This document shows, in pieces, positions 12,552 to 43,460 of a stretch of DNA of 54,305 nt (the first letter of the stretch is position 1; each line of letters opens with the position of its first letter). The DNA comes from Candidatus Uhrbacteria bacterium. Its GTDB lineage: Bacteria > Patescibacteriota > Patescibacteriia > UBA9934 > UBA10169. The DNA lies in the NCBI GenBank assembly GCA_016187485.1, contig JACPJO010000004.1, forward strand, positions 1 through 54,305, given 5' to 3'. The notes beneath the pieces are model-generated. The model did not search any database, was not told the DNA's origin, and saw only the letters and a list, made by a program, of their open reading frames with translations. The translations under genes were made by a program, and so were the position numbers.

Positions 12552-13748
12552 CTAGATATGTTGGGCAGCCAGGCGAAGAGCGGCATGCAGGTCCTTGATC
12601 CGACGGACGCGGCACGCGCGTGCAGCATCTTCCATACACCCGACAAGACCGGGGATGGTGCTGCGCCGACGCAAGGCCTTCCGCTCCCACCACAGACCGC
12701 GCGCCCACTGACGTGCGTCGTGAACTCCGTGGCGCAACTCCGCCCACGGGATGCACGCGTCGGGCAGACGCCGCACCTCGATCGTACCCACCAGCGTGCG
12801 CAGAGACGCCAGCTGCATGAGCCCGAAGTGCTGGATCGAGATGCCAACAACCTGCGCCTGATACCGCGCCACCAGCTCCTTGGGCGGCCGAGGATCCTGG
12901 CTCGACTCGGCCAGACCGATCATCTCCTGCAGATCGCGGGCCATGTGTTGCGTCAGGTGTTCAACCGGGCGCGGGTACACGGCCAGCAGATCCCGAGACG
13001 CCGCATCCATCTGCTCGTAGAGCGACCGCAGGGTTTCGCTGTCACCCCAGTGGCGAGACAGAAGCGTCATCCAGTCGTTCACCTGGCGACGCAGAGCGTC
13101 CAGGAAGCCGAGCAGCGCGTGGCGCTTGGCGAGCAGGACGGCCCGCCGGGGATCGAGCCACTCGTGCACGGCTTCGATCTCTTCCCGGCGCACGCCCAGG
13201 TGCTCGGCCGAAGCCGAGAGCCGCGCCAGGTTGGCACTCCAGTTGCGCCGCTCCGTCCGATCATGAGCAAAGACCGCATCCCCCATGAGCTCGCGCGCAC
13301 GCGCAGCACGCGGACCCTGCACAGCCCGCAGAAGGTCGAGAAGTCCGGCGACGCGCTTGGCGTAGACGGCATCTCGCTCCCGCCGGGCGCTCTCGGCAAG
13401 AAGGGCGTCGCTCCAGAACAGGGCAAGCTCGGAGAGGCCGAACTCGATGGTGGGCATCTCCACGTTGTCCATCTTGGCTTCCACGCGGTTGCACATCTCG
13501 ATGGCCTCGGGCAGACCGCGGCAGCAGACGAACATCTGCCGCCGGTCATCCCAGACCATGACCGCACCACGCCAGATGAACTTCTTGAGCGCCGGGCTGG
13601 GCCGGCCGCGCGCCTCCCTGAACGCCGACGACTCGTAGCGCTCGGTGGACAGGAAGACGCCTGGCATCCAATGGATAGCACGGAGATCGTGGACTCCCGC
13701 CCGCGACTTGATGCTGGAAAGAACCGTCTCATAACTTGGATCCGACAT
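12552..13748 (-). CDS. Hypothetical protein (398 aa), strongly GC-rich orphan
   Basis: A long ORF preceded by GGAGATAGAG. I recognised no motif. The competing + strand ORF 12558..13826 is Arg/Pro/His-rich, typical of an antisense shadow. Confidence 0.7.
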   Translation of the reverse strand: MSDPSYETVLSSIKSRAGVHDLRAIHWMPGVFLSTERYESSAFREARGRPSPALKKFIWRGAVMVWDDRRQMFVCCRGLPEAIEMCNRVEAKMDNVEMPTIEFGLSELALFWSDALLAESARRERDAVYAKRVAGLLDLLRAVQGPRAARARELMGDAVFAHDRTERRNWSANLARLSASAEHLGVRREEIEAVHEWLDPRRAVLLAKRHALLGFLDALRRQVNDWMTLLSRHWGDSETLRSLYEQMDAASRDLLAVYPRPVEHLTQHMARDLQEMIGLAESSQDPRPPKELVARYQAQVVGISIQHFGLMQLASLRTLVGTIEVRRLPDACIPWAELRHGVHDARQWARGLWWERKALRRRSTIPGLVGCMEDAARACRVRRIKDLHAALRLAAQHI

Positions 13749-17913: not shown

Positions 17914-19659
17914 CTACCCGTTTTTCTCCAGATACGCGAGGTAACAGGGTCGACAAAAGATTCTGCGATCCCGATAGGTTTGATTGGCGCCAACCATCAC
18001 CTCCTTGGTACAGCTCGTACAAACCGCCGTTTCAAACTTCCCTGTATTCGATTCCCGTAAGAGATCATTGATGCGTCCAACAAAGTGGCGGGCGGGCGGA
18101 GCAAGTCGGTTATTCTTGTAAAACTGAATCTCCGGACGGATCATGGCGAATCGTCGACGCATGTCTTCGTCATAGATCGGCGCATTCGCCCATATCGTGT
18201 CGTCGAGCGCCTCTACACAATCAGGAATTTCCGAAAGTCGTTTGAGATTTGTCGCGGAAGAGAGCTCTGGCCCCATGGCTCCTTCGTCTTCCGGCTCGAA
18301 TTTGGAAGCGCCAAGTTTCTCCCAGCCGATTTCCTGCGGAGCGGCGAAATAAATCGGCGCGCCTGAGTCGGGGAAATATCCCGGAGACATAGAGAGAGGA
18401 AAAAACTCGCCGTACTCGCCTTGATCCAGCAATGCTGTTTTGATCTCATCAAGTTTTTTCCAATAGGTCTCCTCCGAATACGGTTTATTCAAAATGTGAA
18501 ACTTCTTGCGATAGAGCCCAACGCACCCGAAACAATGTTCGCACTCGATGCACTGCATAGAGTACTCGAGATTTTGCGACGTCTGGCAGTTGTAGGTATA
18601 GCGCATCTGCGAACAATGAGCCGGATTCGTGCTGTAAAAACATTCCTGTGAGGTGAAGAGACCAGCACAAAAAGCGCTGTCGCGAGCATTCTCCGATCCG
18701 TAGGAAACCCAGAAACAATCTTCGACGCCCTCGAGACAACCGAAGCACGAGTGCAGGCGCGTACACCTCGTGAGGTATTCCCCCGTGCATCCCTCCGCCT
18801 GCTCGTTGAAATTCTCCGGCCACACGGCTTGCATCTCCATCATTCGGCGAAATTGATCCTTGTAGACGTTCTGTTTCGAACGGCACGAGAGATCCACGTC
18901 GCGCATCCGGCGCTCCCACTCCTCCTTCGTAAGCTGTTCATTCCACCAAAGATACTTTCGATTGCGCTTGTTCGTGGCACCGAAGCAGGATTCGCAATTA
19001 CGACAGTCGAAGAGAAACGCCGAGCGCATGCAGTCGAAGCTCGTGCGTACGAATTTGCAGTCATAGAGGCGGAACGAATCGGAGACGTTATAGCATTTGT
19101 TGATCGAACCGCCGTTCCACCCCTCACTCGAGTCCTCCTCGTCGAAAACCCAATGGGAATAGAGGGAGTTTTTCGACCGGCAGAACATCATGAAGTAGCT
19201 GTTGACATCGCCCAGAGAAAACTTCGCAATGCTGTTCTCCGGCTCTTTGACGTTTTTGTCCGCAAGGAGAGGGACAGCAAGTTGAAGGCTCCGAAGCTGA
19301 TCAAAAAACGACTGATCAAGATTCAAATCTCGGCCCTCGGAGGCAAAATCCTTTTGAAACCACTCCTTATCCGGCAGAACCCGAATACCCGTTGCCGGAT
19401 GAATAAAGGTGATCACCGGCTTCCCTGTCTCGATATGTTTGTTCCACCACCACTGACCGGCCAAAAAGAATCCAGAACAAATCCACCATCGCGTGAGCGG
19501 GCTATACTTCGACGGCGGCACATTGAACTTTTTGTACCACCCGATTTCTTCCTCCGTCATGTTCCACTTTTCTCCCGTCAACGCACAAACCCTCTCGCCC
19601 GGTTTTGTGGCATCCAAAATCGCTTTCACTTTCGCGTCGTAACTGGGAGTATGGGACAT
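17914..19659 (-). CDS. Cysteine-rich repeat protein, function unknown
   Basis: A 581-aa ORF with repeated C-x2-C-x2-C-F-G modules (DCRNCESCFGA, HSCFGCLEG, QCIECEHCFGC) and a terminal zinc-ribbon-like CTSC...CRPC. Confidence 0.75.
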   Translation of the reverse strand: MSHTPSYDAKVKAILDATKPGERVCALTGEKWNMTEEEIGWYKKFNVPPSKYSPLTRWWICSGFFLAGQWWWNKHIETGKPVITFIHPATGIRVLPDKEWFQKDFASEGRDLNLDQSFFDQLRSLQLAVPLLADKNVKEPENSIAKFSLGDVNSYFMMFCRSKNSLYSHWVFDEEDSSEGWNGGSINKCYNVSDSFRLYDCKFVRTSFDCMRSAFLFDCRNCESCFGATNKRNRKYLWWNEQLTKEEWERRMRDVDLSCRSKQNVYKDQFRRMMEMQAVWPENFNEQAEGCTGEYLTRCTRLHSCFGCLEGVEDCFWVSYGSENARDSAFCAGLFTSQECFYSTNPAHCSQMRYTYNCQTSQNLEYSMQCIECEHCFGCVGLYRKKFHILNKPYSEETYWKKLDEIKTALLDQGEYGEFFPLSMSPGYFPDSGAPIYFAAPQEIGWEKLGASKFEPEDEGAMGPELSSATNLKRLSEIPDCVEALDDTIWANAPIYDEDMRRRFAMIRPEIQFYKNNRLAPPARHFVGRINDLLRESNTGKFETAVCTSCTKEVMVGANQTYRDRRIFCRPCYLAYLEKNG

Positions 19660-19824: not shown

Positions 19825-19858
19825 AACAATCCCTCCTTTCGTGAAAGGAGGGATTGTT
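19825..19858. terminator. Strong hairpin between the convergent/adjacent minus-strand genes
   Basis: AACAATCCCTCCTTT-cgtg-AAAGGAGGGATTGTT is a 15-bp perfect stem followed by TTTT on the + strand. It lies just downstream of the stop of gene 19987..21570. Confidence 0.5.
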
Positions 19859-19986
19859 TTGTCCCATGAGATGACATGCGGCGGCATGTCAGCTCGTGGG
19901 AGCAGGGGCGGCGGAGAGCAAGTTGCTCGATCCGACCGCCCCTACGAAAAAGAATGTGCGCTCTGGCGTTGCACCAGAGGGAGGCT

Positions 19987-21570
19987 CTACAGGCAGCCGT
20001 AGACGTGGAAGTCGTCCACGTACACAGATGCGCCCAGCGGCAGACCGCCGAAGTGCATCGTGATGCGAGCGGTGCCGGGCACGTTCGCCACGGTGCGGTC
20101 GAGCGTGAACGGCGTCCACGCGGTCGTGGACACGTTGTAGCTCACCGACCCGGGGTTGCCAACCACCGACGTGACCCAGTTGAAGTGGTCGATGACCTGG
20201 AACACACCGCCGGTGAAGGACGTCGTGCTGCGCGCGACGAACTCCACGTGGATCCCGTCTCCGACCGCGAGCCCAATGGCGCTCGGATTGAAGAGGAACT
20301 GGAGCTGTTCGGTGTATCCCGGGTTGCCCGTGCCGTTGCCGTCCAGGCGCACGGCGAAGGACCCGTTATGGACCACGCTCGACTGCCGGACCGGCTGCAC
20401 ATTCTGCTCGTAGCCCCAGCCGTCCCCGACGCTTGGGAACGACTGGAACACCTCGGCAGACTCGAAGCTGCCGTTGGTCGTGATCTCCACCTGGGTCCCC
20501 GAAGGGCACCAGGCCGGAGGCGGCGCGGGGCAGGTCTCGGTGAGGTCGCCGTCGCAGTCGCTGTCCACGTCGTCGCAGGTCTCGACGGCACCGGGGAACA
20601 CGTCGTCGTCGCTGTCATCGCAGTCGTTCTCGCAGATCATGTAGCCATCGCCATCGTCGTCGTCCTCGATCCCGGGGATGATGCCGGTGCAGTTGTCGTC
20701 CACACCGTTGCAGACCTCGGACTCGCCGGGGTTCCGGCTGCTGTCCGAGTCGTCACAGTCATCCTCGCAGCCCATGTACCCGTCGTTGTCGGCATCCACC
20801 TCACCGGACGAGAGCATCGCGCCGTTGCAGTTGTTGTCCTGCCCGTCGCAGATCTCCGCGTTGCCGGGGAAGTTGTCGGGGTCGCCGTCGTCGCAGTCCA
20901 CCGAATCGGGACTGCCATCGCCGTCCGCGTCGGGTACCGGCGGCTCGGGGGTGGGTTCTTCCGTGGTGTCGTCATCGTCGCCGCAGCCCTCGTCCACGAC
21001 CGTGTCGCAGTCGTTGTCCACGCCGTCGCAGTCCTCGGTGGCGCTCGGGTGGATGTCCGCGTCCGCGTCGTTGCAGTCCTCGTTGCTGTCGTAGCCGTCG
21101 CTGTCGACGTCCACGAGTGCAGGACTGGAATCGTCGTCATCCGCCGGAGGCGAGCTGTTGTCGTCATCGTCGCCGGGCAGAGGCACGTCGGTCGCGTCGT
21201 CGTCATCGGACGGACTCGAATCGTCATCGTCGTCGCCCGGGAGCGGCACGGTGGCGTCGTTGTCGTCGTCATCGCTGGACGGACTCGAGTCGTCGTCATC
21301 CGCCGGAGGCGAGCTGTTGTCGTCATCGTCGCCGGGCAGAGGCACGTCGGTCGCGTCGTCGTCGGACGGCTCGGTCGAATCGTTGTCGTCGTCATCGGGA
21401 AGCGGGACGCTGTCGTTGTCGTCGTCATCACTGGCCGGACTCGAGTCGTCGTCTGCCGCATTGTCCTCGTCCTCGGCCGCCGGTTCGTCCGGCAGGTCGT
21501 TGTAGGAGAGAAGGTTGCAGGCGGAGAGGGTGGCCGTGCACAGCAGGGCCAAGATCAATCGCAGGTTCAT
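19987..21570 (-). CDS. GC-rich lipoprotein (gene A) with Asp-rich acidic repeats, four Cys/Asp MopE-type putative metal-binding motifs and a CBM4/9-like C-terminal domain
   Basis: Start MNLRLILALLCTATLSAC (lipobox LSAC) at 21570, with GGAGAC 5 nt upstream. Repeats follow the pattern DGYDSNEDCNDADADIHPSATEDCDGVDNDCD (x4). The C-terminus NGSFE...W...VYVDDFHVY is CBM-like. Nearly all third codon positions are G/C. Confidence 0.75.
   Translation of the reverse strand: MNLRLILALLCTATLSACNLLSYNDLPDEPAAEDEDNAADDDSSPASDDDDNDSVPLPDDDDNDSTEPSDDDATDVPLPGDDDDNSSPPADDDDSSPSSDDDDNDATVPLPGDDDDDSSPSDDDDATDVPLPGDDDDNSSPPADDDDSSPALVDVDSDGYDSNEDCNDADADIHPSATEDCDGVDNDCDTVVDEGCGDDDDTTEEPTPEPPVPDADGDGSPDSVDCDDGDPDNFPGNAEICDGQDNNCNGAMLSSGEVDADNDGYMGCEDDCDDSDSSRNPGESEVCNGVDDNCTGIIPGIEDDDDGDGYMICENDCDDSDDDVFPGAVETCDDVDSDCDGDLTETCPAPPPAWCPSGTQVEITTNGSFESAEVFQSFPSVGDGWGYEQNVQPVRQSSVVHNGSFAVRLDGNGTGNPGYTEQLQFLFNPSAIGLAVGDGIHVEFVARSTTSFTGGVFQVIDHFNWVTSVVGNPGSVSYNVSTTAWTPFTLDRTVANVPGTARITMHFGGLPLGASVYVDDFHVYGCL
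21120..21480. repeat. Tandem repeat with a period of about 159 bp inside gene A (acidic linker)
   Basis: A core of about 75 nt (tcgtcgtcatccgccggaggcgagctgttgtcgtcatcgtcgccgggcagaggcacgtcggtcgcgtcgtcgtc) occurs at ~21132 and ~21291. It encodes ...ATDVPLPGDDDDNSSPPADDDDSSP... twice, 53 aa apart. Confidence 0.8.
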
Positions 21571-21717
21571 CGTGGTCTCCAGGCAAAGGTCGCGAACGCA
21601 TGAAGCGTCGGGACCGGGGGTTTGTCTCACTCGTCACTCCAAACCTGCTAACAACACGGAGTGTTGTCACAAAAAACAGGTCTGGAATGACGAGGTTTTT
21701 CAAAGAACGAACGGCTA

Positions 21718-21746
21718 AATTTACCAGAAAATGGCCATTTTGTCAA
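21718..21746 (-). promoter_or_regulatory. Sigma70-like promoter upstream of gene A
   Basis: On the minus strand: TTGACA (21746-21741), a 17-nt spacer, then TAAATT (23723-21718 orientation: 21723-21718). It sits about 150 nt upstream of the ATG in an AT-rich spacer. Confidence 0.45.
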
Positions 21747-21977
21747 GGAATTAGATACCTCCTCTTTAAATTCTCTCTAAGAGGTCACTAAGTGAGAAAA
21801 AGTGGGGTTGGTAGGATTAAAGATCTAAAATAAGTACAAAAAGTCTTCCAGACAGTATTTTCTCTCTAAGTGATGACTTAGAGAGAACGAGGAACTAAAA
21901 AGCACGAAACCTCCCGAGGGGGAGGTTTGAGGAGAGAGAAGAAGGAACGAAAGGACAGGAAAGAACAATTGCGGCCT

Positions 21978-22014
21978 GGGAGGGGCGAGGAGTCCGAAGA
22001 CCCCCGCCCCTCCC
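21978..22014 (-). terminator. GC-rich hairpin downstream of gene B
   Basis: GGGAGGGGCG (21978-21987) pairs with CGCCCCTCCC (22005-22014). A second hairpin, AAACCTCCC/GGGAGGTTT at 21907-21928, is followed on the minus strand by a T-run. Confidence 0.45.
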
Positions 22015-22026
22015 TTCGCCTGCCCG

Positions 22027-22794
22027 CTACTGGACCGTCGGGCAGTCGTCCTCGGCCAGCGGGATCAGGTCCCGCTCCGACTGCGTGGCGGGCGTGGTGC
22101 TGTCCCAGCAGACCCGGACGGCCATGGCGTAGCCGGGCGGGATGCCCTGGATGGCGCAGCCGGCGTCGAACATGCAGGCGACGTCACGCGTGTCGGCGTC
22201 CTCGCAGGCCAGGTCGGCCCACTGGGAGTCGAACGCCCCACGCAGCGTGTGGCGGTACAGCGTGCAGCCGTCGCCATCGCCATCGGCGTCCGCGTCGAGC
22301 TCGACCTCCCACCAGGACTCGTTGTCCGACAGTTCGGGGTTGATCCCGAGGAACTGCCAGTCGGCGTTGCCGCCCCAGCCGTAGCCGACGCTCGAGATGT
22401 CGTCCGCGTCGTCGGTCCAGTCCACCGTACCGGCGTGGAAGTAGCTCACGTTCGAATCGGGATCCGACAGATAGACGTCGCCGATCTCGTTGCGGCCATC
22501 GCAGTCCCAGTCCTCGGACCGGTCCACGCCGTCGCACGGGTCGCCCTCCGCGGCGTCGTTGTCGTCGTCGTCCGCGGGGGGCTCGGTCACGTCGTCGTCG
22601 TCGGGGAGCGGGGGTTCGGTCGCGTCGTCGTCGTCCGCGGCCGAGTCGTCGTCGCCGGTGTCGCTGTCGTCGTCGCCATTGAGACCCAGGTCGTCGGCCG
22701 ACTTGAGGTCGGCCCAACCCGGGCAGCCGGTGAGGACGCAGGCGAGCAGGAGGTTGCAGAAGAGGGGCCAGTTGTGGAAGTGCGTGGTGCGCAT
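22027..22794 (-). CDS. GC-rich lipoprotein (gene B) with an Asp-rich linker and a Cys-containing C-terminal domain of unknown function
   Basis: Within ORF 22027..23160. Start MRTTHFHNWPLFCNLLLACVLTGC (lipobox LTGC) at 22794, with GGAGAA upstream. Acidic tract: DDDSDTGDDDSAADDDDATEPPLPDDDDVTEPPADDDDND. Confidence 0.7.
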   Translation of the reverse strand: MRTTHFHNWPLFCNLLLACVLTGCPGWADLKSADDLGLNGDDDSDTGDDDSAADDDDATEPPLPDDDDVTEPPADDDDNDAAEGDPCDGVDRSEDWDCDGRNEIGDVYLSDPDSNVSYFHAGTVDWTDDADDISSVGYGWGGNADWQFLGINPELSDNESWWEVELDADADGDGDGCTLYRHTLRGAFDSQWADLACEDADTRDVACMFDAGCAIQGIPPGYAMAVRVCWDSTTPATQSERDLIPLAEDDCPTVQ

Positions 22795-23083
22795 GGGTTC
22801 TCCAGGGTGCGGAAAGGCCTTGTGAAGAGCCTCCGCGGGTTTGATGGGGCCGTCTCCATGCGCAGGAGCGGGGCCCGGGGGATGCCCAATGAAGGGCGGG
22901 GATTCCGTAACTGGGGGGGCGAGGGACAAGAATGACGCAAGAAAAAATTTTAAGCGTCCTTCGTCCCCCCAGAGAGAATGGCGACCGAAGTCGCCGAAGA
23001 AGAAAGGGGGCCGCACGGCACGGGGGTTGGACCCGTACCGCGCGGCATCTGTCTGTTCGAGACCCGCGATTCGCGGGGTGGGC

Positions 23084-24496
23084 CTAGCTGGCCGCGGGGG
23101 CAGCCGGAGCGGCAGGCGCTGCGGCGGGGGCCGGCGGCGTCCAGTCGGCCGGGACCACATCGAGGGCGGGCGCCTTGTACACGCTGTGCCGACGGGTCGC
23201 CCCGAAGGTCAGTCGTGCGAGGATCCGCCCCGAGGGGTCCGACTCGTCCTCCAGGTACATGACGTTGCCGATCGCGGCGCCGATCTCGAATCCCAGGGTC
23301 GGCACGAGTGCCGACTGCAGGACGGGGATGCGGAACCGGAACCGTGCGGCGAGGATGAAGTCGGGGGACTCGTGGAGTCCCTGTCCCTCTTCCCAGCCGC
23401 CCGACGTGTACTGGCCACCGACGCTCCCGCCGATGGAGAAGACGGTGCCGGCCGCGAACTCGGCGAAGAACCGCCCACCGATGCCCCACCCGTACCCGTT
23501 GTCGTTGCCGGTCAGACCGTCCAGGACGCCGCCGAAGCAGTGTCCCTTCTGGGGAGCGCAGAGGCCACCGGAGACGGAGACGTTGGCGTAGACCGCCCAC
23601 GGGAATCGCAGGTAGGCGTCCTCGCCGTTCACCTCGGCCGAAGCGTCGGTGCCGACCATGCCGAGGAAGCCGCCCTCGATCCCGAAGTACGGATCGGGGT
23701 CCTGCCCGACGTTCTCCTCGAGCGCCGTCAGACGCTTCTCGCCGTTGGCGAGCCGGACGTCCTGCTGCTCGTCCTTGTGCTCGCCCTTCTCGAGGCGTTC
23801 CAGGATGTCGTCCAGGTTCGTTGCGAGGGTGGCGAGATCGGCCGTGAGCGTGCCGATGGCGGCCGTGTTGTCCGACGTCGCCGTCTGGATCGCCGACATC
23901 GCGTTCTCGATCCCCTTGATCCGCGGCTCCAACTCCGTCTTGATGGCGGCCGGGAGTCCCTCGACCTTGAGCTTGAGCTCGTCGAGGACCTTCTGGTTCG
24001 CCGTCAGCCGGATGCTGTTCATCTGGCTCTCGTAGCGCTCGGGGCTGACGCAGGCGCCGTGGAAGCTCTTGAACGGGGAGGGCTTGAACCCCTCCTTGCA
24101 CTTGAGCTTGCAGTTGGCCGCGTCGTACTCGGTCGTCGTCGCGTTCTCGTTGGCGATCTTCTGGAGCACCTCGGCGACCTTCGCCTTCGCCGCCGCGTCC
24201 TTGCCCTTGCACGCGCAGTTGGGGTCGGGCACCACGGGAGCCACGTTCGTGCCGGCCGGCGCCGGGGAGGCGGGGGGCGGGACGATCTGCGGGGCGGGCG
24301 TGGCGCCGATGGCGGGAGCCGGCGTCGCGGGGGCGGCGGCCGGGATCTTGGGAGCGGGGACGATCGTGGGGGCCAGAACCGCCGCGGATGCGGCGGGGGC
24401 GGCCTGGGACTGCTGCGCCCAGACCTGGTTGCAGGTGAGGGTGACGCCGAGCACCATGCTCAGCGCCGTCACGAACTGGGTGTTCCGACGGGTCAT
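23084..24496 (-). CDS. GC-rich secreted protein (gene C): signal peptide, Pro/Ala linker, coiled-coil, Gly/aromatic-rich beta-type C-terminal domain
   Basis: Within ORF 23084..24748. Start MTRRNTQFVTALSMVLGVTLTCNQVWAQ at 24496, with AGGAGGA upstream. The heptad-like region is ...LKLKVEGLPAAIKTELEPRIKGIENAMSAIQ.... The C-terminus has alternating-pattern strands (FILAARFRFRIPV, TLGFEIGAAIGNVMYL). Confidence 0.75.
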   Translation of the reverse strand: MTRRNTQFVTALSMVLGVTLTCNQVWAQQSQAAPAASAAVLAPTIVPAPKIPAAAPATPAPAIGATPAPQIVPPPASPAPAGTNVAPVVPDPNCACKGKDAAAKAKVAEVLQKIANENATTTEYDAANCKLKCKEGFKPSPFKSFHGACVSPERYESQMNSIRLTANQKVLDELKLKVEGLPAAIKTELEPRIKGIENAMSAIQTATSDNTAAIGTLTADLATLATNLDDILERLEKGEHKDEQQDVRLANGEKRLTALEENVGQDPDPYFGIEGGFLGMVGTDASAEVNGEDAYLRFPWAVYANVSVSGGLCAPQKGHCFGGVLDGLTGNDNGYGWGIGGRFFAEFAAGTVFSIGGSVGGQYTSGGWEEGQGLHESPDFILAARFRFRIPVLQSALVPTLGFEIGAAIGNVMYLEDESDPSGRILARLTFGATRRHSVYKAPALDVVPADWTPPAPAAAPAAPAAPAAS

Positions 24497-24794
24497 GGAC
24501 CTGTCCTCCTGAAGCCCAACACGGCGCCGAGCCGGTGGGGCGGGTTTACCATCCGGCCTCGCAAGCCGGAGTCCGAAAACTCCGCTTGCGCGGCCTGGTC
24601 TCAAACAAATTGAGAAAGGACCGTGAGAAGCACGATCCGGTCCAGGATTCTCGAAGAAATTGGTTCCTCCGAAAATTCTGAACCGTCTAGTGCTTGGATG
24701 ATTTGGCGACATCTGTCGGTGGAGGAGAATCCAACAGAAGCACACCAAATCGTCTAAGTACTAGACGGCCGAATCCATTGAAAATGAACGTGCA

Positions 24795-24823
24795 AATTTA
24801 GCAAAAAACCACGAATATGTCAA
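24795..24823 (-). promoter_or_regulatory. Sigma70-like promoter upstream of gene C
   Basis: On the minus strand: TTGACA (24823-24818), a 17-nt spacer, then TAAATT (24800-24795). The boxes and spacing match the gene A promoter. Confidence 0.45.
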
Positions 24824-24998
24824 GAGATGGCCTTAAATTGGCCAAAATATTAGCTAAAAACAAAACCCCCTTGAAGGGCATGATGCTCGCCTGTCACAAC
24901 GAGGAGGAGACGTTGCGACCGCGGCACCAGGCCCTTGAAAGGGGTATTGAGAGGCAAAAGTTACCTTACGAGAGGAGGAGATGTCAAATGGTTGCAAA

Positions 24999-25033
24999 GT
25001 TGCAGAGTGACAAAGTTACAGAGTGACAAAGTT
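24999..25033. repeat. Left arm of a 35-nt inverted repeat flanking the four-helix-bundle gene, embedded in a 16-nt tandem array
   Basis: GTTGCAGAGTGACAAAGTTACAGAGTGACAAAGTT. It is part of about 3 tandem units of CAAAGTT(G/A)CAGAGTGA spanning 24995-25045. Confidence 0.8.
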
Positions 25034-25047
25034 GCAAGGTAGTGAAA

Positions 25048-25407
25048 TCACTTAAGGGAACGGATAAGACCACTTAAAAGGAAAGCTACCTCTTGGCGAT
25101 TTGATTCTACTGATTGGTATACAGTTTGAGGAAGGTATCCAAGATCTAAAGATAAACGCAGAAGATACTCACACTCACTAAGGGACCCCCTGGCTATGTA
25201 TAGATACCGAACAAAGTCCTTCGTCGTATTTTTGGCCTGTCCTTCCACGATGTTCGTGGGGACGGAGACACAGGCACGTCTTAGCTGTCCAGTAATTCCA
25301 TAACATTCTTCAGGAGGAAAGGATTGAGATACTTTATAAACATCCAAAACAAAACAATGGGCTTTCTGCCACACAACAAGATCTCGGAAAGTTCTTACTG
25401 GTTCCAT
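25048..25407 (-). CDS. Four-helix-bundle protein (23S rRNA intervening-sequence protein family)
   Basis: MEPVRTFRDLVVWQKAHCFVLDVYKVSQSFP...GITGQLRRACVSVPTNIVEGQAK...YLYIARGSLSECEYLL is the typical family signature. ATG at 25407 is preferred over the listed GTG at 25425. Confidence 0.85.
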   Translation of the reverse strand: MEPVRTFRDLVVWQKAHCFVLDVYKVSQSFPPEECYGITGQLRRACVSVPTNIVEGQAKNTTKDFVRYLYIARGSLSECEYLLRLSLDLGYLPQTVYQSVESNRQEVAFLLSGLIRSLK

Positions 25408-25414
25408 AAACCAA

Positions 25415-25449
25415 AACTTTGCCACTGTGCCACTTTACAACTCTGCAAC
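25415..25449. repeat. Right arm of the 35-nt inverted repeat
   Basis: AACTTTGCCACTGTGCCACTTTACAACTCTGCAAC. Its reverse complement matches the left arm at 29 of 35 positions by my hand alignment. Confidence 0.75.
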
Positions 25450-25453
25450 CTTC

Positions 25454-26095
25454 CTACCACTCCTCGTGAATAAGTTGGTGCCGGCGCTTCAAACGTTCCG
25501 AGTTCATGTACACAAGCCCCACGCCGGTAAGGGCGCCGAGCACAAAGCCAGTAAAGGCGTTCACAGGAATATTTGGCTTCACGGGAAAACGCGAGTTGAG
25601 TGGCTCATCCACCAACCGCACCGACAGACCGCTCGCGCTCACAAATTGGTGCGACCGCGTGGTGAGCACAAACGCCACCGCGCGCGCAATGCGCTCGGCC
25701 TCCCCTACACTCGTGTGATACACATCTACTTCTAAAAGTCCCGTACCACGCACCACGGTGGGCTGCACCGTCTTCCGCCACACCTTCCGCCGCTTCAATC
25801 CGTCTTTTGGAAAATAGCTTGCACGAATATCAAACCCCGCACTCATCACCTCGTCATAAAATGCCGACGTGTGAATGAGTGTGGCCATGTCGTCGGCAAG
25901 GCGTTCACTTGAACGACTCGCCGTGTAGGCGTCCACAACTCCAACATTTTGCGTAATGAGTACGCGCACCGATGAACGATATTTAAGCGGCTCAAAAAAG
26001 GACAGAATGCTCGCTAGAATCAACCCAAGAATGGCAGACAAAAAAATGGTGCGCCAACCAAAACGGACAAATACCGATGCGGGGGGGGTCGTCAT
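25454..26095 (-). CDS. Wzz/chain-length-determinant-like membrane protein
   Basis: TM segments at both the N- and C-terminus flank a soluble domain. The layout matches the small Wzz/YveK-type polysaccharide co-polymerase N-terminal domain. Confidence 0.6.
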   Translation of the reverse strand: MTTPPASVFVRFGWRTIFLSAILGLILASILSFFEPLKYRSSVRVLITQNVGVVDAYTASRSSERLADDMATLIHTSAFYDEVMSAGFDIRASYFPKDGLKRRKVWRKTVQPTVVRGTGLLEVDVYHTSVGEAERIARAVAFVLTTRSHQFVSASGLSVRLVDEPLNSRFPVKPNIPVNAFTGFVLGALTGVGLVYMNSERLKRRHQLIHEEW

Positions 26096-26116
26096 ACCAC
26101 CACGAAGTGTATCATA

Positions 26117-26872
26117 TTAACTCCACCGCGCGGTAGAAAGAATAAGGAGAAGGAGAAGTCCCACAAAGACGAGATAGCGTACCAACACACGCCGCTCCAG
26201 CCGATCAATCAGCTCTGCGCGTAGAAGACCCAAAAGCCCGTAATGGAGAAGCGCCAGCGCCGCCGCACTCACCAAGTGACTTAACGGGAAGAAAGAGAAA
26301 ACGACAAAGAACTCGGTAAGCAGAAGGGAACCAAAAATCGAGATACGACGCACCGACTCTTCTTCCATCTTGCTCGCCCAAAGCGTCTCAAAAATGAAAA
26401 GTGTCTCGCCGAGAAAAAAGAGTGGGACCAAAATCCACAGGGGAAATTGCGCCAGCACAAGGAAACCTAAACTCACCATCGCAGAGAGAAACGCACTCAA
26501 TGTAGAGAAGACAAACGTGAGACGCTCAAGCGTGTAGACACGATACCGGTGGCTCTCAAACACATACAGTCGCACATGTTCCGCATACACAAGCCAGAGA
26601 ATTCCGAGCAAAGCGGCAAGGGCGTAGCGGTGTGCGTCATACTCCAAAAAGAGGAAAAACCCGTCGCTTGCAAGCGCCAGACCGGCGGGAGCAAGAAGAA
26701 ATCGGGGAGCGTGCGGGGTATTGAGGGACTGGCGCAGCAGAAACCAAAAGGTTCCAATCCCAAGCACAAGGCTTGCCGCAAGATACACAAGCGCGCGCGC
26801 CGGATCCCACGTGGCCATCAATGGCCCCGCGGCAGAAAGGACAGCAGAGAGGACAATCCACAAACGCGTCAT
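26117..26872 (-). CDS. Polytopic membrane protein, unknown function
   Basis: A 251-aa ORF with more than 6 hydrophobic segments. It overlaps neighbouring genes by 4 nt, which suggests an operon. Confidence 0.7.
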   Translation of the reverse strand: MTRLWIVLSAVLSAAGPLMATWDPARALVYLAASLVLGIGTFWFLLRQSLNTPHAPRFLLAPAGLALASDGFFLFLEYDAHRYALAALLGILWLVYAEHVRLYVFESHRYRVYTLERLTFVFSTLSAFLSAMVSLGFLVLAQFPLWILVPLFFLGETLFIFETLWASKMEEESVRRISIFGSLLLTEFFVVFSFFPLSHLVSAAALALLHYGLLGLLRAELIDRLERRVLVRYLVFVGLLLLLILSTARWS

Positions 26873-27546
26873 AGTTTTTGGACATCAAGCATAAGCGCGC
26901 CCTTCAACAGGAGACCTTCGGGCGTCACACGTACGTCTGTAAGATCGGCGTACGACTGCACTTCCCCTTTCACTTTTGCGAGAGCCATCTTAACGGCGCG
27001 GTCGAGAAACAAGCGCGCAAGCACGCGCGGCACGGGCGCCCCGCCAACACGTAAAGACTCCGTGGAGAGCTTCACCCACCCCTCCTCTACCGATGGGCGC
27101 ACTCGCCACGTAAGCGCGGTATCTTTCAATGGGAGAAATATCTCTATGCTCTCCCCCGCCACGGCAACTTGGCTCTTGGAAAAATCGACCAACCTTGAAG
27201 ACGACGTATCCCCTTGCCGGATAAGGCGCGTAAGGACAGACTCGGGAAGCGTGAGTTCGATCGTACGATCGGTGAGATTGGAAGAAACTCTGTTTGACAC
27301 GGCACGAGAAAACCACGCGTCAAACGGGATAGTGGACGGTTCCACGGCATGATCGGGGACGGGAGTTTTAAACGCCCATTGGGAAACCGTCGGCACTTCC
27401 ACAAGGCCGCTTGCCGCAGCAAGATACACAATATAACCGGCAATAGCCGCAACAATCAAAAAGGACCAAAGCACGCACGAGCCGCACCCGAAACCGTGTC
27501 GGGGACGAGACGGGGAAAGCGTTGGGTGTCTTTGAGACCCGATCAC
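26869..27546 (-). CDS. Membrane-anchored hypothetical protein
   Basis: A 225-aa ORF with a single N-terminal TM segment (VLWSFLIVAAIAGYIVYLAAA). It is translationally coupled to its neighbours. Confidence 0.65.
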   Translation of the reverse strand: MIGSQRHPTLSPSRPRHGFGCGSCVLWSFLIVAAIAGYIVYLAAASGLVEVPTVSQWAFKTPVPDHAVEPSTIPFDAWFSRAVSNRVSSNLTDRTIELTLPESVLTRLIRQGDTSSSRLVDFSKSQVAVAGESIEIFLPLKDTALTWRVRPSVEEGWVKLSTESLRVGGAPVPRVLARLFLDRAVKMALAKVKGEVQSYADLTDVRVTPEGLLLKGALMLDVQKL

Positions 27547-33781: not shown

Positions 33782-36700
33782 CTAAGGCATGCTTGGCGGA
33801 AGAATAATGGGACTTACGTTTAGCAAACGATACTGTTCAACCTTCTGTACGTCTCCGTAGCCGTGTTCTTGATGACGATAGGTGGATTGAACCAGGTAGC
33901 CCATCCTCAGCCCGTTCTGGCTCAAGAAGCCTTCCAGGAACGTCCGATCAATTTGCAGCCATTGGCCGTAGGGTAATGGCATGTCCATATTATTTCTCTC
34001 CTTCAAGCCCTCTATCCAATCGCTGTGGGTAATTATTGTCTCTTCTCCGTTCCTGTACTCGTAGATTAGCCCCCGTATTTCTCCTGTAGAATCCTGCCTA
34101 ATTTCCGGTACGGGAAGGAATTGTAGTTGATAATCTCTAAAATATTGCCAAAGGTTTATGGTCAAATCACGGGTGCGAGCAACTAGAGGGTAAACGATCA
34201 AATCTTTTATTTTTGTTGGATTTAAATGGAGTGGATACAGGCATGCCGCTGGATTATCCAAAAAACTAAAAGGAGACGGAGTGTGCGTTGGTATTAGGGT
34301 GAGAGCGGGGTTGTTTACAATTAATTTCGCCACTTCTTCAGCGGTTGGAAGCTCAGAACCAACCACCTCATACGCAAAGCCTATCACGGAAATTGAATGA
34401 TGGGGATCGGTCTTAGCTGTAGGTGGTGGCATGATGGCGCCCTCAAAAGCTAAGAAGGGTTTGTCTTGGTTGATTGCCAGAATTGATTCAACTGGGGTCT
34501 GTAGATCAGCCTCCACCAGTCCCACTTCTGTCAAGCGCCCTTCAGCTAATCTTGGCCACCAGGCCGGAAGCCTTCCCATGATTTTTTGCCAAATACCTAA
34601 ATCTACTGGCAAAGTTGCATAGGCATATTCAAGGTAGAAATCTTCTGGAATCTTTCCGTCTACGTAGAAGCTGTGAAGCACTCTCAGGAAAGCTGACCTG
34701 TAAGCTTCACTGACGCGTGTAGACATCCCAACCAGCGATGCGCCTCGCTCTCTTCCTTGGAAATGTCCTGCCCCTGCATTTAAAGAAATTCCATTTTCAT
34801 GGATGAGCACTGAAGAGGTATGTGCCCATTGCTTAATAAAACCGACACCAATCTTCCCTTCAATATCTTTAGCTCGTTCGTAATAGATTGGAGCTAAAAA
34901 TGATTTAATATATTTCTGGAAAAAATCATCTATGACAAAAGCGGTAGGTGCCGTAGAGACCATCCCAAAAGGCGGCAGGACAATAGCCTCAATATCTTCA
35001 TCTAAAAGAGCGGCTAACTCCTGAAGTAATTCTTGAATTACAGCTGAGTTTACCTTCAAATTCGAAACAATATCCGCGAGTTTTATGTAAGAGATGTTTT
35101 CTTTTGCGGTCAATGAAGATGCTCGGATTAAACACAGGAGATAGATAGCCACAACACTCTCAAGAGGTGCTCGTTGAAGTTTATCAAGGAACTTTTTGTA
35201 TAATCCTTCTCGTTCCGAAGAAGAAATAAGCAGCTGAGCAATTGCTGTCGCGGCTCGTTCTCGAACCAGTGGACTTGGCCATGTTAATCGTTGAACTACC
35301 AGGTCGAACTCGTCCACTTCATCAGCAGCGTACCTGACCTCTTCCCAGATAGGCGGGGGTAATTTAGTTTCCGCCATTAGGGAGTCGGCAAAGATGATAC
35401 TTGCCTCGGTGATGATTTCTGCGTTCACAAGGTCACCGAATAACACAAAGAAGTCGACAGCACGTGCGATGGGCACAAAGTATTCCAAACCGTCCCTCCA
35501 TTTGCTCCCAACAGCGATGCTATTTTCGAAAAACTCTAAATGACGTGTCGGGTATTTATCTCGTAGAAACGCCCAGCGTGCTTCTGCCTTCTTTTTGTCA
35601 GTCCAATAGGATTGCCAGCCGTTATCGTTTGCCTGTGCACGACAAAGCAAATCAAATGCTCGTCCATTATTGAATTCGTAGGCCAGAGGATAGAGTACGT
35701 CGAGTAGCTCTCCACCAAGATGATTTAACTCAGCTTCGGGTACTACAGCAACAAAGCTCCTGTAGACCTGCTCTTTATTTCCATTGCCGAGCCAATATAT
35801 AAGCCATCCATGCAAATATACTTCTCGTTCCCACGGGCTATCAAACCTCCTTTCATTTACACTTTGTACCAAAACATCCGGAGGAACACTGCTGAAATCT
35901 TCAGCAGAGGCCGGACGAGTATAGGGAGTCGGAGCATCTTTTTCTGGGTAAGTTATTTCCCCAAAGTAATCCGTAATCGTACTCAAGGCCTTAGCGGCAC
36001 CTTCTTGTTTCTGTGCAACGATACCGAGCGACTTGTATGAATCCTCATCAAGAGCTGTTGTTGCTAGCGCGGTAGATACATCGGAATCATACGGCGATGA
36101 TTGAACAATGACTTCGAAGAGATCTTCCGCGTGGAATAAGTACTCTGAGTCTGCATTTACATAGTAGTCCTTATATAGAGTCGGTCGATCAAATTTATCA
36201 AAGACTTGAGCAAGATTCAGTGAAAGATGATTGGTTCCATCTCCATCGGTATATTCAGTTACGTTTTCTACAATTGGTGCGATCGATGCCAGCCAATGAC
36301 GCATTTTTACTGCTTCAACACCTGCTGTTCCACAAGCCAAAATGGCATCTAGCACTCCATCTAGGTACATGTCCTTGTGATAGCCGTATCCGAGAAGATT
36401 TTTTGCAGAATCTAAAAGTAACTCTTTTGCACGTTCAGTGTCTCCCTGAATCCTGCAAAGTGTAGCGAGATCAGCGAAAGAAGCAGTTCTTTCTGAAAAG
36501 TATCCCACTGATTCCTTGAGATTTGTAACTTGAGTCTCATTAAAATGAGCATGTGCCGCACTCGAAAAAACCGGCTTACACTGCTTGATAGAAAATTCTA
36601 ATAGATTAGCCGCATTAAAAAACGGAGTACTTAAAATCGATATGACATCCTCCGGTGTGAATTGATGTAATGATTCGACGGCGATTTTTAACATCACTAA

Positions 36701-39691: not shown

Positions 39692-39757
39692 TTCATGCTT
39701 TTATTGCAGATGTAGATTATCTCGTTTTACTGTCTTTGTCTCCTTGACCGCGGTTAA

Positions 39758-42917: not shown

Positions 42918-43460
42918 TCAGCGCTGGCGGGACGGGCAGTCGTCGGGGAGCTTCGCGCTCCGGGCAGGCGACTGCGCCGCCACGAGACGGTCCTCGTTGT
43001 TCTGGAAGTCGCCGTAGGCGCCAAGAGCGAGGTAGTAGATCTGCTTGGACGCTCTGTCGATCGCCTCGTAGACCCCGTCGAACGAAAACGTCTCGAAATC
43101 GTGGTTCAGCTCGTCGGGGATGATTCCGAGGCGGAGCTCCGCCGGTGCAGTCTGCACCGACGCCAGGAGCTCGGCCTTGAACCCCTCGAAGTTGGCCTTC
43201 CGCGTCCCGACGTCAGCGTTGGCGAGCAGGCGTGCGGCATTGCTCATCGCATCCCACTCCTGCGCGCGAAACGTCAAGGTCTTCATGGCATCGAAGAGGA
43301 CGCAGCGGTAGGCGACCTCGACCTGGATCTCGACCGTCACCTTCTCCTCGTTGGTGAGGGTGATGTTCTCCCCGTCGGTCTTGGTGGGAGCGCTCCCCAT
43401 CATCAGGATGGCGGCGAGAGAGACGATCGTGTTGAGGAACTTGCGGAAGGAGCTGGACAT
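42918..43460 (-). CDS. GC-rich secreted hypothetical protein
   Basis: Within ORF 42918..43553. Start MSSSFRKFLNTIVSLAAILMMGSAPT at 43460, with GGAGGAAACCC upstream. An AT-rich upstream region carries TATAAT (minus strand, 43505-43500) and TTGACT-17-TATGTT (43553-43525). Confidence 0.65.
   Translation of the reverse strand: MSSSFRKFLNTIVSLAAILMMGSAPTKTDGENITLTNEEKVTVEIQVEVAYRCVLFDAMKTLTFRAQEWDAMSNAARLLANADVGTRKANFEGFKAELLASVQTAPAELRLGIIPDELNHDFETFSFDGVYEAIDRASKQIYYLALGAYGDFQNNEDRLVAAQSPARSAKLPDDCPSRQR

What the first reader, a model, noticed from the sequence alone, without database searches (positions are those of the whole stretch)
19825..24823. 4.9-kb GC-rich cluster of three exported proteins with myxobacteria-style Asp/Cys motifs
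Gene A (19987-21570) is a lipoprotein. It has long poly-Asp linkers and four copies of the D-G-x-D...DC(D/N)D...PG..E.C(D/N)G.D(N/D)(D/N)C motif (the MopE-type putative metal-binding motif, which I know as abundant in Myxococcota). It also has a CBM4/9-like C-terminal domain. Gene B (22027-22794) is a second lipoprotein with the same acidic-linker style and a Cys-rich domain I cannot assign. Gene C (23084-24496) is secreted. The A-B spacer is AT-rich, but the B-C spacer (22795-23083) stays GC-rich, so B and C may have arrived as one block and A separately. Acidic, possibly Ca/metal-binding surface lipoproteins with a carbohydrate-binding module could mediate attachment to a partner cell or matrix. 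That would make them functionally interesting in an epibiont.
Basis: partly seen in the sequence, partly recalled or inferred. Interest (0 to 1): 0.7.

Follow-up and report, generated by a model that had tools for sequence, protein, structure and literature searches.

The report
Conserved GC-rich surface-protein cassette in CPR
Three exported, very acidic surface proteins with extreme G/C-ending codon use are a gene cassette inherited within a small group of Patescibacteria, not a recent import from myxobacteria, and two RNA hairpins absent from the RNA family library sit just upstream of it.

Summary
Genes A (19987-21570), B (22027-22794) and C (23084-24496), all on the minus strand, encode two lipoproteins and one secreted protein. 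A has four PF11617 "MopE-type" Cys/Asp motifs, poly-Asp linkers and a C-terminal domain that models as a CBM4-like beta-sandwich. GC3 is 0.88-0.95, against 0.59 ± 0.03 in the rest of the window.

The foreign-origin reading does not hold. The same C-B-A order, next to the same Wzz-like gene, occurs in at least three other Patescibacteria lineages near Uhrbacteria. Every copy has GC3 of 0.87-0.97 in a genome with GC3 of 0.55-0.70. B and C have homologues only at such loci. Synonymous sites are saturated between lineages, so an ongoing force keeps the codon bias. Selection linked to expression is my favoured cause, but it is unproven.

I read the cassette as a fast-evolving cell-surface adhesion or envelope module: lipid anchor, polyanionic tether, Cys/Asp modules (calcium binding inferred) and a distal glycan-binding domain, plus a coiled-coil partner. 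Each of A and C has its own near-consensus promoter.

New here: gene C has a conserved, structured 5' leader whose long hairpin carries a CUCCUCC loop. A candidate small RNA with the same loop lies just upstream. Neither matches Rfam.

The parts
24958..24987 (-). Promoter-like site (TTGACA-18-TAACTT) in front of the candidate small RNA
   Evidence: A regex scan finds an equivalent TTGACA-17/18-TAnnTT site at the same relative position in L001, L002 and L025.
24865..24950 (-). Candidate small RNA of about 90 nt: a hairpin of about 35 bp with invariant loop UCUCCUCCU, then a U-tract
   Evidence: Single-sequence folds give z = -7.0 to -8.6 in four lineages. The alignment fold has 35 pairs, 8 of them with compensatory changes. 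Model R1 found it at 24.6 bits. It has no Rfam match.
24795..24823 (-). Promoter-like site of gene C (TTGACA-17-TAAATT, with TG before the -10)
   Evidence: It matches 10 of 12 consensus positions. The pattern occurs twice in the window against 0.01 expected. It is conserved upstream of the C orthologues in L002 and L025, and a homologous TTGACA-17-TAACTT site in L001 lines up with them in the leader alignment.
24497..24790 (-). Structured 5' leader of gene C (about 290 nt, four hairpins)
   Evidence: It aligns at DNA level across five lineages although the C proteins are only 23-34% identical. The consensus fold has 60 pairs, 18 of them compensatory. 86.5% of cells are paired against 27-47% in the slid controls, with 0 of 500 shuffles as good. 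Fold z = -9.5. It has no Rfam match.
24684..24767 (-). Leader hairpin 1: a long stem presenting the loop GAUUCUCCUCC (resembles the anti-Shine-Dalgarno sequence)
   Evidence: The same hairpin and loop occur after the Wzz-like gene in L001, L002, L025 and in the distant L011, L012 and L014, whose stems differ completely in sequence. In the 19-pair lower stem, 93.5% of cells are paired against 22-45% when slid, 14 of 19 pairs are compensatory, and 0 of 500 shuffles match.
23084..24496 (-). Gene C, 470 aa. Signal peptide (residues 1-27), Ala/Pro-rich linker, small Cys region, coiled coil (about 160-268), Gly-rich beta-type C-terminal domain (about 268-445), Ala/Pro tail
   Evidence: ORF. GC3 is 0.928. 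Only sub-threshold coiled-coil Pfam hits. Remote homologues P0125-P0127 at E 4e-12 to 5e-6, with P0127 at the syntenic position in L025. Alignment A6. The C-terminal domain has no credible Pfam or PDB match.
23010..23046 (-). Terminator-like hairpin after gene C (15-bp stem, 12 G-C pairs)
22027..22794 (-). Gene B, 255 aa. Lipoprotein (conserved lipobox LTGC, Cys24), acidic tether (residues 25-85), Cys-rich beta-type domain (86-255) of an uncharacterised family
   Evidence: ORF. Lipobox. GC3 is 0.945. Only three homologues among 5.8 billion proteins, plus syntenic copies in L002 and L025. No Pfam or PDB match. The AlphaFold model is unreliable (pLDDT 43).
21907..21928 (-). Terminator-like hairpin after gene B
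21718..21746 (-). Promoter-like site of gene A (TTGACA-17-TAAATT, with TG), about 147 nt upstream of the start codon
   Evidence: Similar sites lie upstream of the A orthologues in L021 (regex) and L022 (read in the alignment).
21091..21570 (-). Gene A, N-terminal part: lipoprotein signal (Cys18, LSAC) and poly-Asp linker (residues 19-160) with a 159-nt tandem duplication
   Evidence: Four independent Logan assemblies break at 21662, just upstream of this stretch.
20536..21090 (-). Gene A, residues 161-345: four PF11617 (MopE-type) Cys/Asp motifs
   Evidence: Pfam E 2.9e-26 over 4 stretches. The only PDB sequence match is the N-terminal motif of MopE* (2VOV residues 6-47, E 0.006).
19987..20535 (-). 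Gene A, residues 346-527 plus the stop codon: CBM4-like beta-sandwich domain with conserved Cys at both ends
   Evidence: Family alignment A3. Model pLDDT 79. Foldseek top hits are CBM4-2, CBM4, CBM16 and CBM22 at E 2e-8 to 1e-5.
19830..19849 (-). Terminator-like hairpin after gene A (the low-coordinate edge of the cassette)
25454..26095 (-). Wzz-like 213-aa gene, the conserved syntenic anchor upstream of the cassette
   Evidence: Weak Pfam Wzz and GNVR hits. It is 67-70% identical to the gene next to the cassette in L001, L002 and L025. Relatives are named Ca. Uhrbacteria or Patescibacteria.
42918..43460 (-). Separate 180-aa secreted-protein gene with the same codon regime (GC3 0.90), its own promoter-like site and terminator

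Best explanation
This is a lineage-specific cell-surface gene cassette, inherited vertically in Patescibacteria near Uhrbacteria. It lies directly downstream of a Wzz-like gene. In relatives it lies between that gene and Wzy_C/GT4 polysaccharide genes.

Gene A encodes a lipid-anchored protein. A polyanionic, disordered tether of about 140 residues carries four disulfide-rich, Asp-rich (inferred calcium-binding) MopE-type modules and a distal CBM4-like domain that binds a glycan. The glycan could be on the cell's own envelope polymer or on a partner cell. Gene B encodes a second lipid-anchored acidic protein with a novel Cys-rich beta domain. Gene C encodes a secreted coiled-coil protein with a novel Gly-rich beta domain, which probably oligomerises and works with A and B in the envelope.

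A and C are each transcribed from a near-consensus sigma-70-type promoter and followed by a hairpin terminator. C carries a long structured leader. The near-total avoidance of A/T-ending codons is held at equilibrium in every lineage by a force acting on the coding sequence. I think selection tied to high expression or mRNA stability is the most likely force.

Shown:
- gene structures, motifs and the CBM-like fold
- synteny across lineages and the restricted distribution of B and C
- saturated synonymous sites with a persistent GC3 contrast
- the conserved RNA structures

Inferred:
- calcium binding and glycan binding
- an adhesion or envelope role, and any A-B-C complex
- high expression, and selection as the cause of the codon bias
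For: Synteny and distribution. Wzz-C-B-A recurs in L001, L002/L003 and L025/L026, sometimes with a fourth MopE-repeat lipoprotein D. The Wzz-like proteins are 67-70% identical, A 40-46%, B 30-62% and C 23-34%. B has three homologues and C four remote ones in billions of proteins, and those that could be placed lie at such loci.

Composition. The cassette has GC3 of 0.87-0.97 in every lineage, against 0.55-0.70 in flanking genes. Most spacers have GC of 0.47-0.57 and the others 0.61-0.64.

Saturation. At conserved amino acids, the fraction of identical codons equals the random expectation for A, B, C and Wzz. The GC3 contrast is therefore not a relic of ancestry.

Codon pattern. TTT 0 of 38, AAA 0 of 22, CAA 0 of 31. 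C3 rises from 0.28 to 0.59 while G3 stays the same. C keeps host-like Lys and Asn content.

Broader pattern. A second exported monocistronic gene in the window shows the same regime. In L014-L017 (genome GC 0.28-0.61) the exported-protein genes after the Wzz-like gene also have higher GC3 than their neighbours. This is not so in L012.

Expression signals. Promoter-like sites, terminators and long leaders are present.

Domains..
Against: - No expression data, and no ribosomal-protein or EF-Tu genes of this genome, were available to show that highly expressed genes share the codon regime.
- Exclusive use of AAG, CAG and GAG looks more like a compositional bias than classical tRNA-driven codon optimisation.
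- Other large surface proteins of the same genome have ordinary GC3 of 0.59-0.60.
- In the window the cassette is not followed by Wzy_C/GT4 as in relatives, but by an unrelated 581-aa protein and iPGM.
- Glycan binding, calcium binding, lipidation and any A-B-C interaction are untested.
- B could not be modelled.
- The L025 A-type protein has a different C-terminal domain, so the CBM is not universal.
Confidence: 0.55

Rival explanations
1. A recently acquired genomic island from a high-GC donor such as Myxococcota, possibly in two steps (B and C together, A separately).
For: GC3 lies 9-12 sd above the host genes. Codon use resembles that of a genome of about 68-70% GC. PF11617 motif proteins dominate the 3,529 hits to A, and the named ones are Myxococcota or MYXO-CTERM proteins.
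Against: The cluster sits at the same site, in the same order and with the same composition in at least four lineages whose synonymous sites are saturated. B and C have no homologue outside these loci. There is no integrase, tRNA or flanking repeat at the borders and no phage-family match. Three of the four spacers in the window have host-like GC.
Confidence: 0.07
2. A variable surface-antigen cassette, analogous to O-antigen or capsule loci that keep atypical GC. It is repeatedly replaced by homologous recombination through the conserved flanks. The donors would be high-GC relatives (some Uhrbacteria have about 65% GC), or the cassette is driven GC-rich by GC-biased gene conversion at a recombination hot spot.
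For: The backbone HtrA-Wzz ... Wzy_C-GT4 is conserved, while the 3-7 kb between these genes differs in content across relatives. Cassette proteins evolve much faster than the flanks. A 65%-GC Uhrbacteria relative (L011) has native GC3 of about 0.82-0.90, and its genes after Wzz also encode Cys/Asp-rich lipoproteins. The all-G/C-ending codon pattern looks compositional.
Against: Most spacers inside the cassette are not GC-enriched, which regional gene conversion or wholesale import would predict. The promoter and leader are conserved with the host lineage. An unlinked gene at 42918-43460 shows the same regime. No closer high-GC donor copy of A, B or C was found. Low-GC relatives also show the cassette raised relative to the genome.
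Confidence: 0.22
3. A copper or other metal acquisition system like MopE/CorA of methanotrophs, or an Asp-rich mineral-nucleating ('shell matrix') system.
For: The Pfam family is named after MopE. The only PDB sequence match is MopE*. GenBank names the orthologue P0024 'Shell matrix protein'. A has 140 acidic residues.
Against: The match covers only the N-terminal motif of MopE* (residues 6-47). The MopE* copper site is two His plus a kynurenine (abstract of PMC3423442, seen), and CorA (PMC3912023) shares the same beta fold; only MopE* residues 6-47 match A, and nothing in A matches the remainder of the chain. The 'shell matrix' name most probably reflects compositional similarity only.
Confidence: 0.06
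4. An assembly chimera that joins a high-GC organism's contig to a CPR contig.
For: There is a sharp composition change. Four independent Logan assemblies break at 21662, just upstream of gene A.
Against: Six independent assemblies reproduce window 21662-27496 or parts of it at 99.9-100% identity, spanning host genes, C and B. The B-to-A adjacency is reproduced in L001, L002 and L025, which come from unrelated studies. The break coincides with A's tandem poly-Asp repeats.
Confidence: 0.02

Closest known systems
PF11617 'putative metal-binding motif' proteins (Cu-binding_MopE motif), abundant as MYXO-CTERM surface proteins in Myxococcota
   Same: A carries four copies of the D-x-D-G ... D-C-[DN]-D ... 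P-G-x-x-E-x-C-[DN]-G-x-D-[DN]-[DN]-C motif, well above the Pfam threshold. It is exported and very acidic.
   Different: A is N-terminally lipid-anchored, with no MYXO-CTERM signal. It has a long poly-Asp tether and a CBM4-like tip. It lives in a small CPR genome, in a conserved cassette with two families found nowhere else.
CBM4, CBM9, CBM16 and CBM22 carbohydrate-binding modules (for example CBM4-2 of Rhodothermus marinus Xyn10A)
   Same: Beta-jelly-roll fold (Foldseek E 2e-8, TM about 0.6). An N-x-x-F-E start and a conserved Asp near the C-terminus, typical of these modules. A weak sequence match in the right register.
   Different: It stays below the Pfam threshold, at about 20% identity. 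It is not attached to any glycoside hydrolase. It is bracketed by conserved cysteines. Its ligand is unknown.
Variable surface-polysaccharide and surface-antigen loci flanked by conserved genes, such as O-antigen or capsule clusters with persistently atypical GC (from my own knowledge)
   Same: A fast-evolving surface cassette between conserved envelope genes (Wzz ... Wzy_C/GT4). Its base composition is atypical in every lineage.
   Different: The deviation is upward, confined to third codon positions, and extreme (GC3 up to 0.97). The cargo is exported proteins, not sugar-pathway enzymes.
S-layer and major outer-surface protein genes, such as slpA or ompA, with strong promoters and long stabilising 5' leaders (from my own knowledge)
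   Same: Monocistronic layout, a near-consensus promoter, a long hairpin-rich 5' UTR, a strong terminator and strong codon bias.
   Different: There is no sequence or domain relation to known S-layer proteins. Expression level is unknown.
C-rich-loop regulatory RNAs that pair with Shine-Dalgarno sequences, such as the RsaE/RoxS type (from my own knowledge)
   Same: A pyrimidine-rich loop (CUCCUCC) presented on a stable hairpin, complementary to GGAGGA ribosome-binding sites.
   Different: No Rfam match. The stem is far longer (about 25-35 bp). One copy is a cis leader element and the other a possible separate transcript. The targets are untested.

Membership tests
Pfam PF11617 (Cu-binding_MopE, putative metal-binding motif) | HMM match above the gathering score | tested here: met
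   91.8 bits against a cut-off of 27, 4 stretches, E 2.9e-26.
MopE/CorA copper-binding surface proteins | Homology to the beta-rich domain that holds the copper site (two His plus kynurenine) | tested here: not met
   Only MopE* residues 6-47, the motif itself, match A. The copper site is as described in the abstract of PMC3423442.
CBM_4_9 (PF02018) and the CBM4 fold | Pfam HMM match above threshold | tested here: not met
   E 0.12 in 1 of 5 family members.
CBM_4_9 (PF02018) and the CBM4 fold | Beta-jelly-roll fold that superposes on solved CBM4 modules | tested here: met
   Model pLDDT 79, pTM 0.78. Foldseek matches 4bj0, 3jxs and 2y64 (CBM4-2) at E 2e-8 to 1.6e-7 with TM 0.57-0.63, followed by CBM4, CBM16 and CBM22 modules. 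The PDB profile search returned only CBM4-2 chains.
CBM_4_9 (PF02018) and the CBM4 fold | Binds a carbohydrate | not testable with these tools
   Needs glycan arrays or ITC on the recombinant domain.
Bacterial lipoproteins (Lgt/LspA substrates) | N-terminal basic region, hydrophobic region and lipobox L-x-[GAS]-C | tested here: met
   PS51257 pattern at A Cys18. B matches at Cys19 by the script and also at the conserved Cys24 by hand. Every A, B and D orthologue has L/I-x-G/A/S-C.
Bacterial lipoproteins (Lgt/LspA substrates) | The genome encodes Lgt and LspA, and the protein is acylated | not tested
   Neither gene was seen among the window ORFs scanned. The rest of the genome was not available.
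Horizontally acquired genomic island | Atypical base composition | tested here: met
   GC3 z = 9.5-11.6.
Horizontally acquired genomic island | Absent from the same site in relatives, and flanked by mobility genes, a tRNA or repeats | tested here: not met
   Present at the same site in L001, L002/L003 and L025/L026. There is no integrase, tRNA or border repeat.
Horizontally acquired genomic island | Closest homologues lie in a distant taxon | tested here: not met
   The closest full-length homologues of A, and all homologues of B and C, lie in syntenic Patescibacteria loci. Only the repeat stretch of A matches non-CPR proteins best.
Outer-membrane beta-barrel proteins (considered for the C-terminal domain of C) | A match to an OMP family, and a terminal aromatic residue at the C-terminus | tested here: not met
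   No Pfam hit and one chance PDB hit, a uridylate kinase at E 0.044. The domain is followed by an Ala/Pro tail that ends in Ser.
Any Rfam family (for the leader of C and the candidate small RNA) | A covariance-model match | tested here: not met
   Nothing at gathering scores. At E<=1 only two chance microRNA hits appeared, both elsewhere in the region.

The most novel reading that the evidence does not exclude
A small clade of Patescibacteria keeps a dedicated expression regime for an abundant envelope or adhesion complex. Its parts would be:
- coding sequences held at 90-97% G/C-ending codons by selection across saturated divergence
- a conserved promoter
- a pair of undescribed RNA elements with a CUCCUCC loop that resembles the anti-Shine-Dalgarno sequence: a candidate trans-acting small RNA and a cis leader hairpin, which together gate translation of the cassette.
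Probability: 0.3. Interest if true: 0.75.

Novelty: new variant of a known kind. Interest (0 to 1): 0.55.

Why it matters
Patescibacteria depend on contact with other cells, yet almost nothing is known about the molecules on their surface.

This cassette offers concrete candidates: a lipid-anchored stalk with a glycan-binding tip, plus two protein families found only in this clade. All three can be expressed and tested.

It is also a cautionary case for calling gene transfer from base composition. A GC3 excess of 10 sd turns out to be an equilibrium state shared by orthologues, not a mark of recent import. What maintains it is an open, testable question: selection on codons or mRNA, or biased conversion.

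The two CUCCUCC-loop RNA structures would be rare examples of conserved regulatory RNAs in this radiation.

Tried and rejected
- **Metagenome scan with peptide patterns from B.** 600 pattern matches, none confirmed.
- **Metagenome scan with a leader DNA pattern.** It returned only the GW2011_GWA2_53_21 organism again.
- **AlphaFold model of B from a 3-sequence alignment.** pLDDT 43, so it was not used for a fold search.
- **Pfam, NCBIfam, PDB and PHROGs searches for B and for the C-terminal domain of C.** Nothing credible.
- **Outer-membrane beta-barrel idea for the Gly-rich domain of C.** No support, and it would be odd for a presumably single-membrane cell. Dropped.
- **Diversity-generating retroelement idea.** It was prompted by the adjacent 23S_rRNA_IVP/bAvd-like gene. 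No reverse transcriptase turned up among the window ORFs scanned. Dropped.
- **Phage or mobile-element origin.** No PHROG hits apart from coiled-coil noise.
- **Extending beyond the window to find ribosomal-protein genes for a codon-usage control.** The extra 8.5 kb held only YbeY, DAGK, TSP3 proteins and a giant protein.
- **Literature searches.** Five searches found no description of this cassette, its codon bias or the RNA elements.
- **Taxonomy look-up of GW2011_GWA2_53_21.** It failed.

Full report
**1. What is there.**
GC is 0.66-0.69 there, against about 0.50-0.57 around it. The excess sits in third codon positions. GC3 is 0.883, 0.945 and 0.928, against 0.594 ± 0.030 for 20 other genes in the window, so z = 9.5-11.6. 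A/T-ending codons are almost absent: TTT 0 of 38, AAA 0 of 22, CAA 0 of 31, ATT 1 of 38. The gain is entirely in C3 (0.28 to 0.59), while G3 does not change. Spacer GC is 0.49 (below A), 0.48 (A-B), 0.64 (B-C) and 0.50 (above C).

**2. The proteins.**
- **A.** It has a PS51257-type lipobox (LSAC, Cys18). Its linker is 21.8% Asp and contains a 159-nt tandem duplication. It carries four PF11617 motifs (91.8 bits against a cut-off of 27). The only PDB sequence match is the N-terminal motif of MopE*, residues 6-47. The MopE* copper site is two His plus a kynurenine (PMC3423442 abstract), and none of the MopE* chain beyond residues 6-47 matches A. The name therefore does not imply copper binding.
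- **C-terminal domain of A.** Residues 346-527 form a family with P0001, P0024, P0118 and P0099. Sequence methods give only sub-threshold signals, but they all point the same way: Pfam CBM_4_9 at E 0.12, and CBM4-2 as the only PDB hits. An AlphaFold model (pLDDT 79, pTM 0.78) matches CBM4-2, CBM4, CBM16 and CBM22 modules, with best E 2e-8 and TM about 0.6.
- **B.** It has a conserved lipobox (LTGC), an acidic tether and a Cys-rich domain. It has no Pfam, NCBIfam or PDB relative. Its model was unusable.
- **C.** It has a Sec-type signal, an Ala/Pro linker, a stretch that gives only coiled-coil-type weak hits, and a Gly-rich C-terminal domain of about 180 residues with no credible match.

**3. 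Where else it occurs.**
- **Homologues.** A's best full-length hits, and all hits for B, come from metagenomic contigs or the Parcubacteria MAG GW2011_GWA2_53_21. C had no hit in the word-indexed search. An exhaustive HMMER search found three clear family members, P0125-P0127, at E 4e-12 to 5e-6.
- **Context.** Genomic context shows one conserved arrangement: Wzz-like gene, then C, B and A. L002/L003 and L025/L026 add a fourth MopE-repeat lipoprotein followed by Wzy_C and GT4. Upstream synteny (AI-2E transporter, DUF5656, Wzz) matches the window.
- **Divergence.** The Wzz-like proteins are 67-70% identical, A 40-46%, B 30-62% and C 23-34%.
- **Taxonomy.** Relatives of the Wzz-like gene in reference genomes are named Candidatus Uhrbacteria or Patescibacteria.
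- **More distant relatives.** There the HtrA-Wzz ... Wzy_C-GT4 backbone persists, but the genes in between encode other exported proteins.

**4. Composition is shared and is at equilibrium.**
In every lineage the cassette genes have GC3 of 0.87-0.97, flanking genes 0.55-0.70, and most spacers GC 0.47-0.57 (the rest 0.61-0.64). At amino acids conserved between the window and each orthologue, the fraction of identical codons equals what random draws from each gene's own codon usage would give. For A this is 0.57-0.69 observed against 0.59-0.66 expected. For Wzz it is 0.39-0.45 against 0.36-0.39. Synonymous sites have therefore turned over completely since these lineages split, and the GC3 contrast must be actively maintained in each one. 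Three further points bear on the cause:
- An unlinked monocistronic gene for a 180-aa secreted protein (42918-43460) has GC3 of 0.90.
- In L014-L017 (genome GC 0.28-0.61) the genes after the Wzz-like gene also have higher GC3 than their neighbours, though L012 shows no such excess.
- Other large surface proteins of this genome have ordinary GC3.

I favour selection on the coding sequence, for translation or mRNA stability in highly expressed genes. Repeated cassette replacement from high-GC relatives, or biased gene conversion, is not excluded. No control set of highly expressed genes from this genome was within reach.

**5. It is not a chimera, phage or mobile element.**
Six independent Logan assemblies reproduce window 21662-27496 or parts of it at 99.9-100% identity. 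Four of them stop at 21662, just before A's repeat-rich 5' part. The B-to-A adjacency is reproduced in three other lineages. There is no integrase, tRNA or border repeat, and no PHROG match.

**6. Expression signals.**
The pattern TTGACA-17-TAAATT, with TG before the -10, occurs twice in the window against 0.01 expected. One copy lies 147 nt upstream of A and the other 298 nt upstream of C. Equivalent sites precede the C orthologues in L001, L002 and L025 and the A orthologues in L021 and L022. Hairpin terminators follow C, B and A. No consensus promoter was found for B.

**7. An unexpected RNA layer.**
- **Leader of C.** It aligns at DNA level across lineages, unlike the coding region. It folds into four hairpins with 60 pairs, 18 of them compensatory. 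86.5% of cells are paired against 27-47% in the slid controls. Single-sequence z-scores are -9.5 and -4.7.
- **Hairpin 1.** Its first hairpin (24684-24767) presents a CUCCUCC loop. The same loop sits on stems of entirely different sequence after the Wzz-like gene in the distant relatives L011, L012 and L014. Over seven sequences, the 19-pair lower stem is 93.5% paired against 22-45% when slid. Compensatory changes occur at 14 pairs, and 0 of 500 shuffles do as well. The structure was derived from these same sequences, which inflates such numbers to some degree.
- **Second element.** A covariance model of this hairpin also detected an element upstream of C's promoter, at 24865-24950. It is a hairpin of about 35 bp with the invariant loop UCUCCUCCU and a U-tract. 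A TTGACA-17/18-TAnnTT site of its own precedes it in the window, L001, L002 and L025. This is a candidate small RNA of about 90 nt, although it could instead be an elaborate terminator of the upstream transcript.
- **Status.** Neither element matches Rfam. The loop is complementary to GGAGGA ribosome-binding sites, such as the one in front of C. Pairing with Shine-Dalgarno sequences is a hypothesis only.

**8. Verdict.**
The protein-level reading is largely right. The cassette is a clade-specific surface module whose function is still unproven. It carries a real compositional puzzle and two conserved RNA structures absent from Rfam.

Noticed in passing
window 24865-24987 (-): Candidate small RNA between the IVP gene and C's promoter. 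It has a promoter-like TTGACA-18-TAACTT site, a hairpin of about 35 bp with invariant loop UCUCCUCCU, and a U-tract. It is conserved in L001, L002 and L025 and is not in Rfam.
   Followed up: partly
window 24497-24790 (-); hairpin 1 at 24684-24767: Conserved, highly structured 5' leader of gene C. Its first hairpin carries a CUCCUCC loop. The same hairpin occurs in seven lineages with covarying stems.
   Followed up: partly
window 42918-43460 (-): 180-aa secreted protein of unknown family with GC3 0.90, its own promoter-like site (TTGACT ... TGGGTATAAT) and terminator. It shows the same codon regime as the cassette but is unlinked to it.
   Followed up: partly
window 25048-25425 (-): A 23S_rRNA_IVP / bAvd-like four-helix-bundle gene (GC 0.43, GC3 0.35) is inserted between the Wzz-like gene and the RNA elements. 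It is absent at this site in L001, L002 and L025.
   Followed up: no
window 33782-40740: Low-GC (0.42-0.45) stretch. It encodes a 1969-aa protein with Cap4-type nuclease and NACHT/AAA domains, a likely defence gene, next to tRNA-Asp (40664-40740). This looks like a real acquired island.
   Followed up: no
window 2-5998 (-): A giant ORF of more than 1999 aa runs off the start of the window. Its GC looks ordinary. It is probably a large surface protein.
   Followed up: no
window 12552-13748 (-): 398-aa Arg-rich, apparently cytoplasmic ORF with raised GC (GC1 0.72, GC3 0.79) and no Pfam match. It is compositionally odd in a different way from the cassette.
   Followed up: no
window 21771-21798 and 21860-21887: Two copies of a 12-4-12 palindrome (TTCTCTCTAAGT-N4-ACTTAGAGAGAA), 89 nt apart, just upstream of A's promoter. 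They could be operator sites or hairpins and are not seen in the other lineages.
   Followed up: no
window 21662: Four independent short-read assemblies end here, just upstream of gene A. The likely cause is A's poly-Asp (GAC) tandem repeats.
   Followed up: yes
L029 1-6809 (DNA beyond the window's high-coordinate end): Two TSP3_bac (Asp-rich repeat) proteins and a 3458-aa giant protein (VWA, TIG, Big_5). All have ordinary GC3 of about 0.59-0.60.
   Followed up: partly
window 17914-19659 (-): 581-aa Cys-rich protein with no signal peptide and no Pfam match lies directly downstream of A. In relatives that position is taken by a MopE-repeat lipoprotein and Wzy_C.
   Followed up: no
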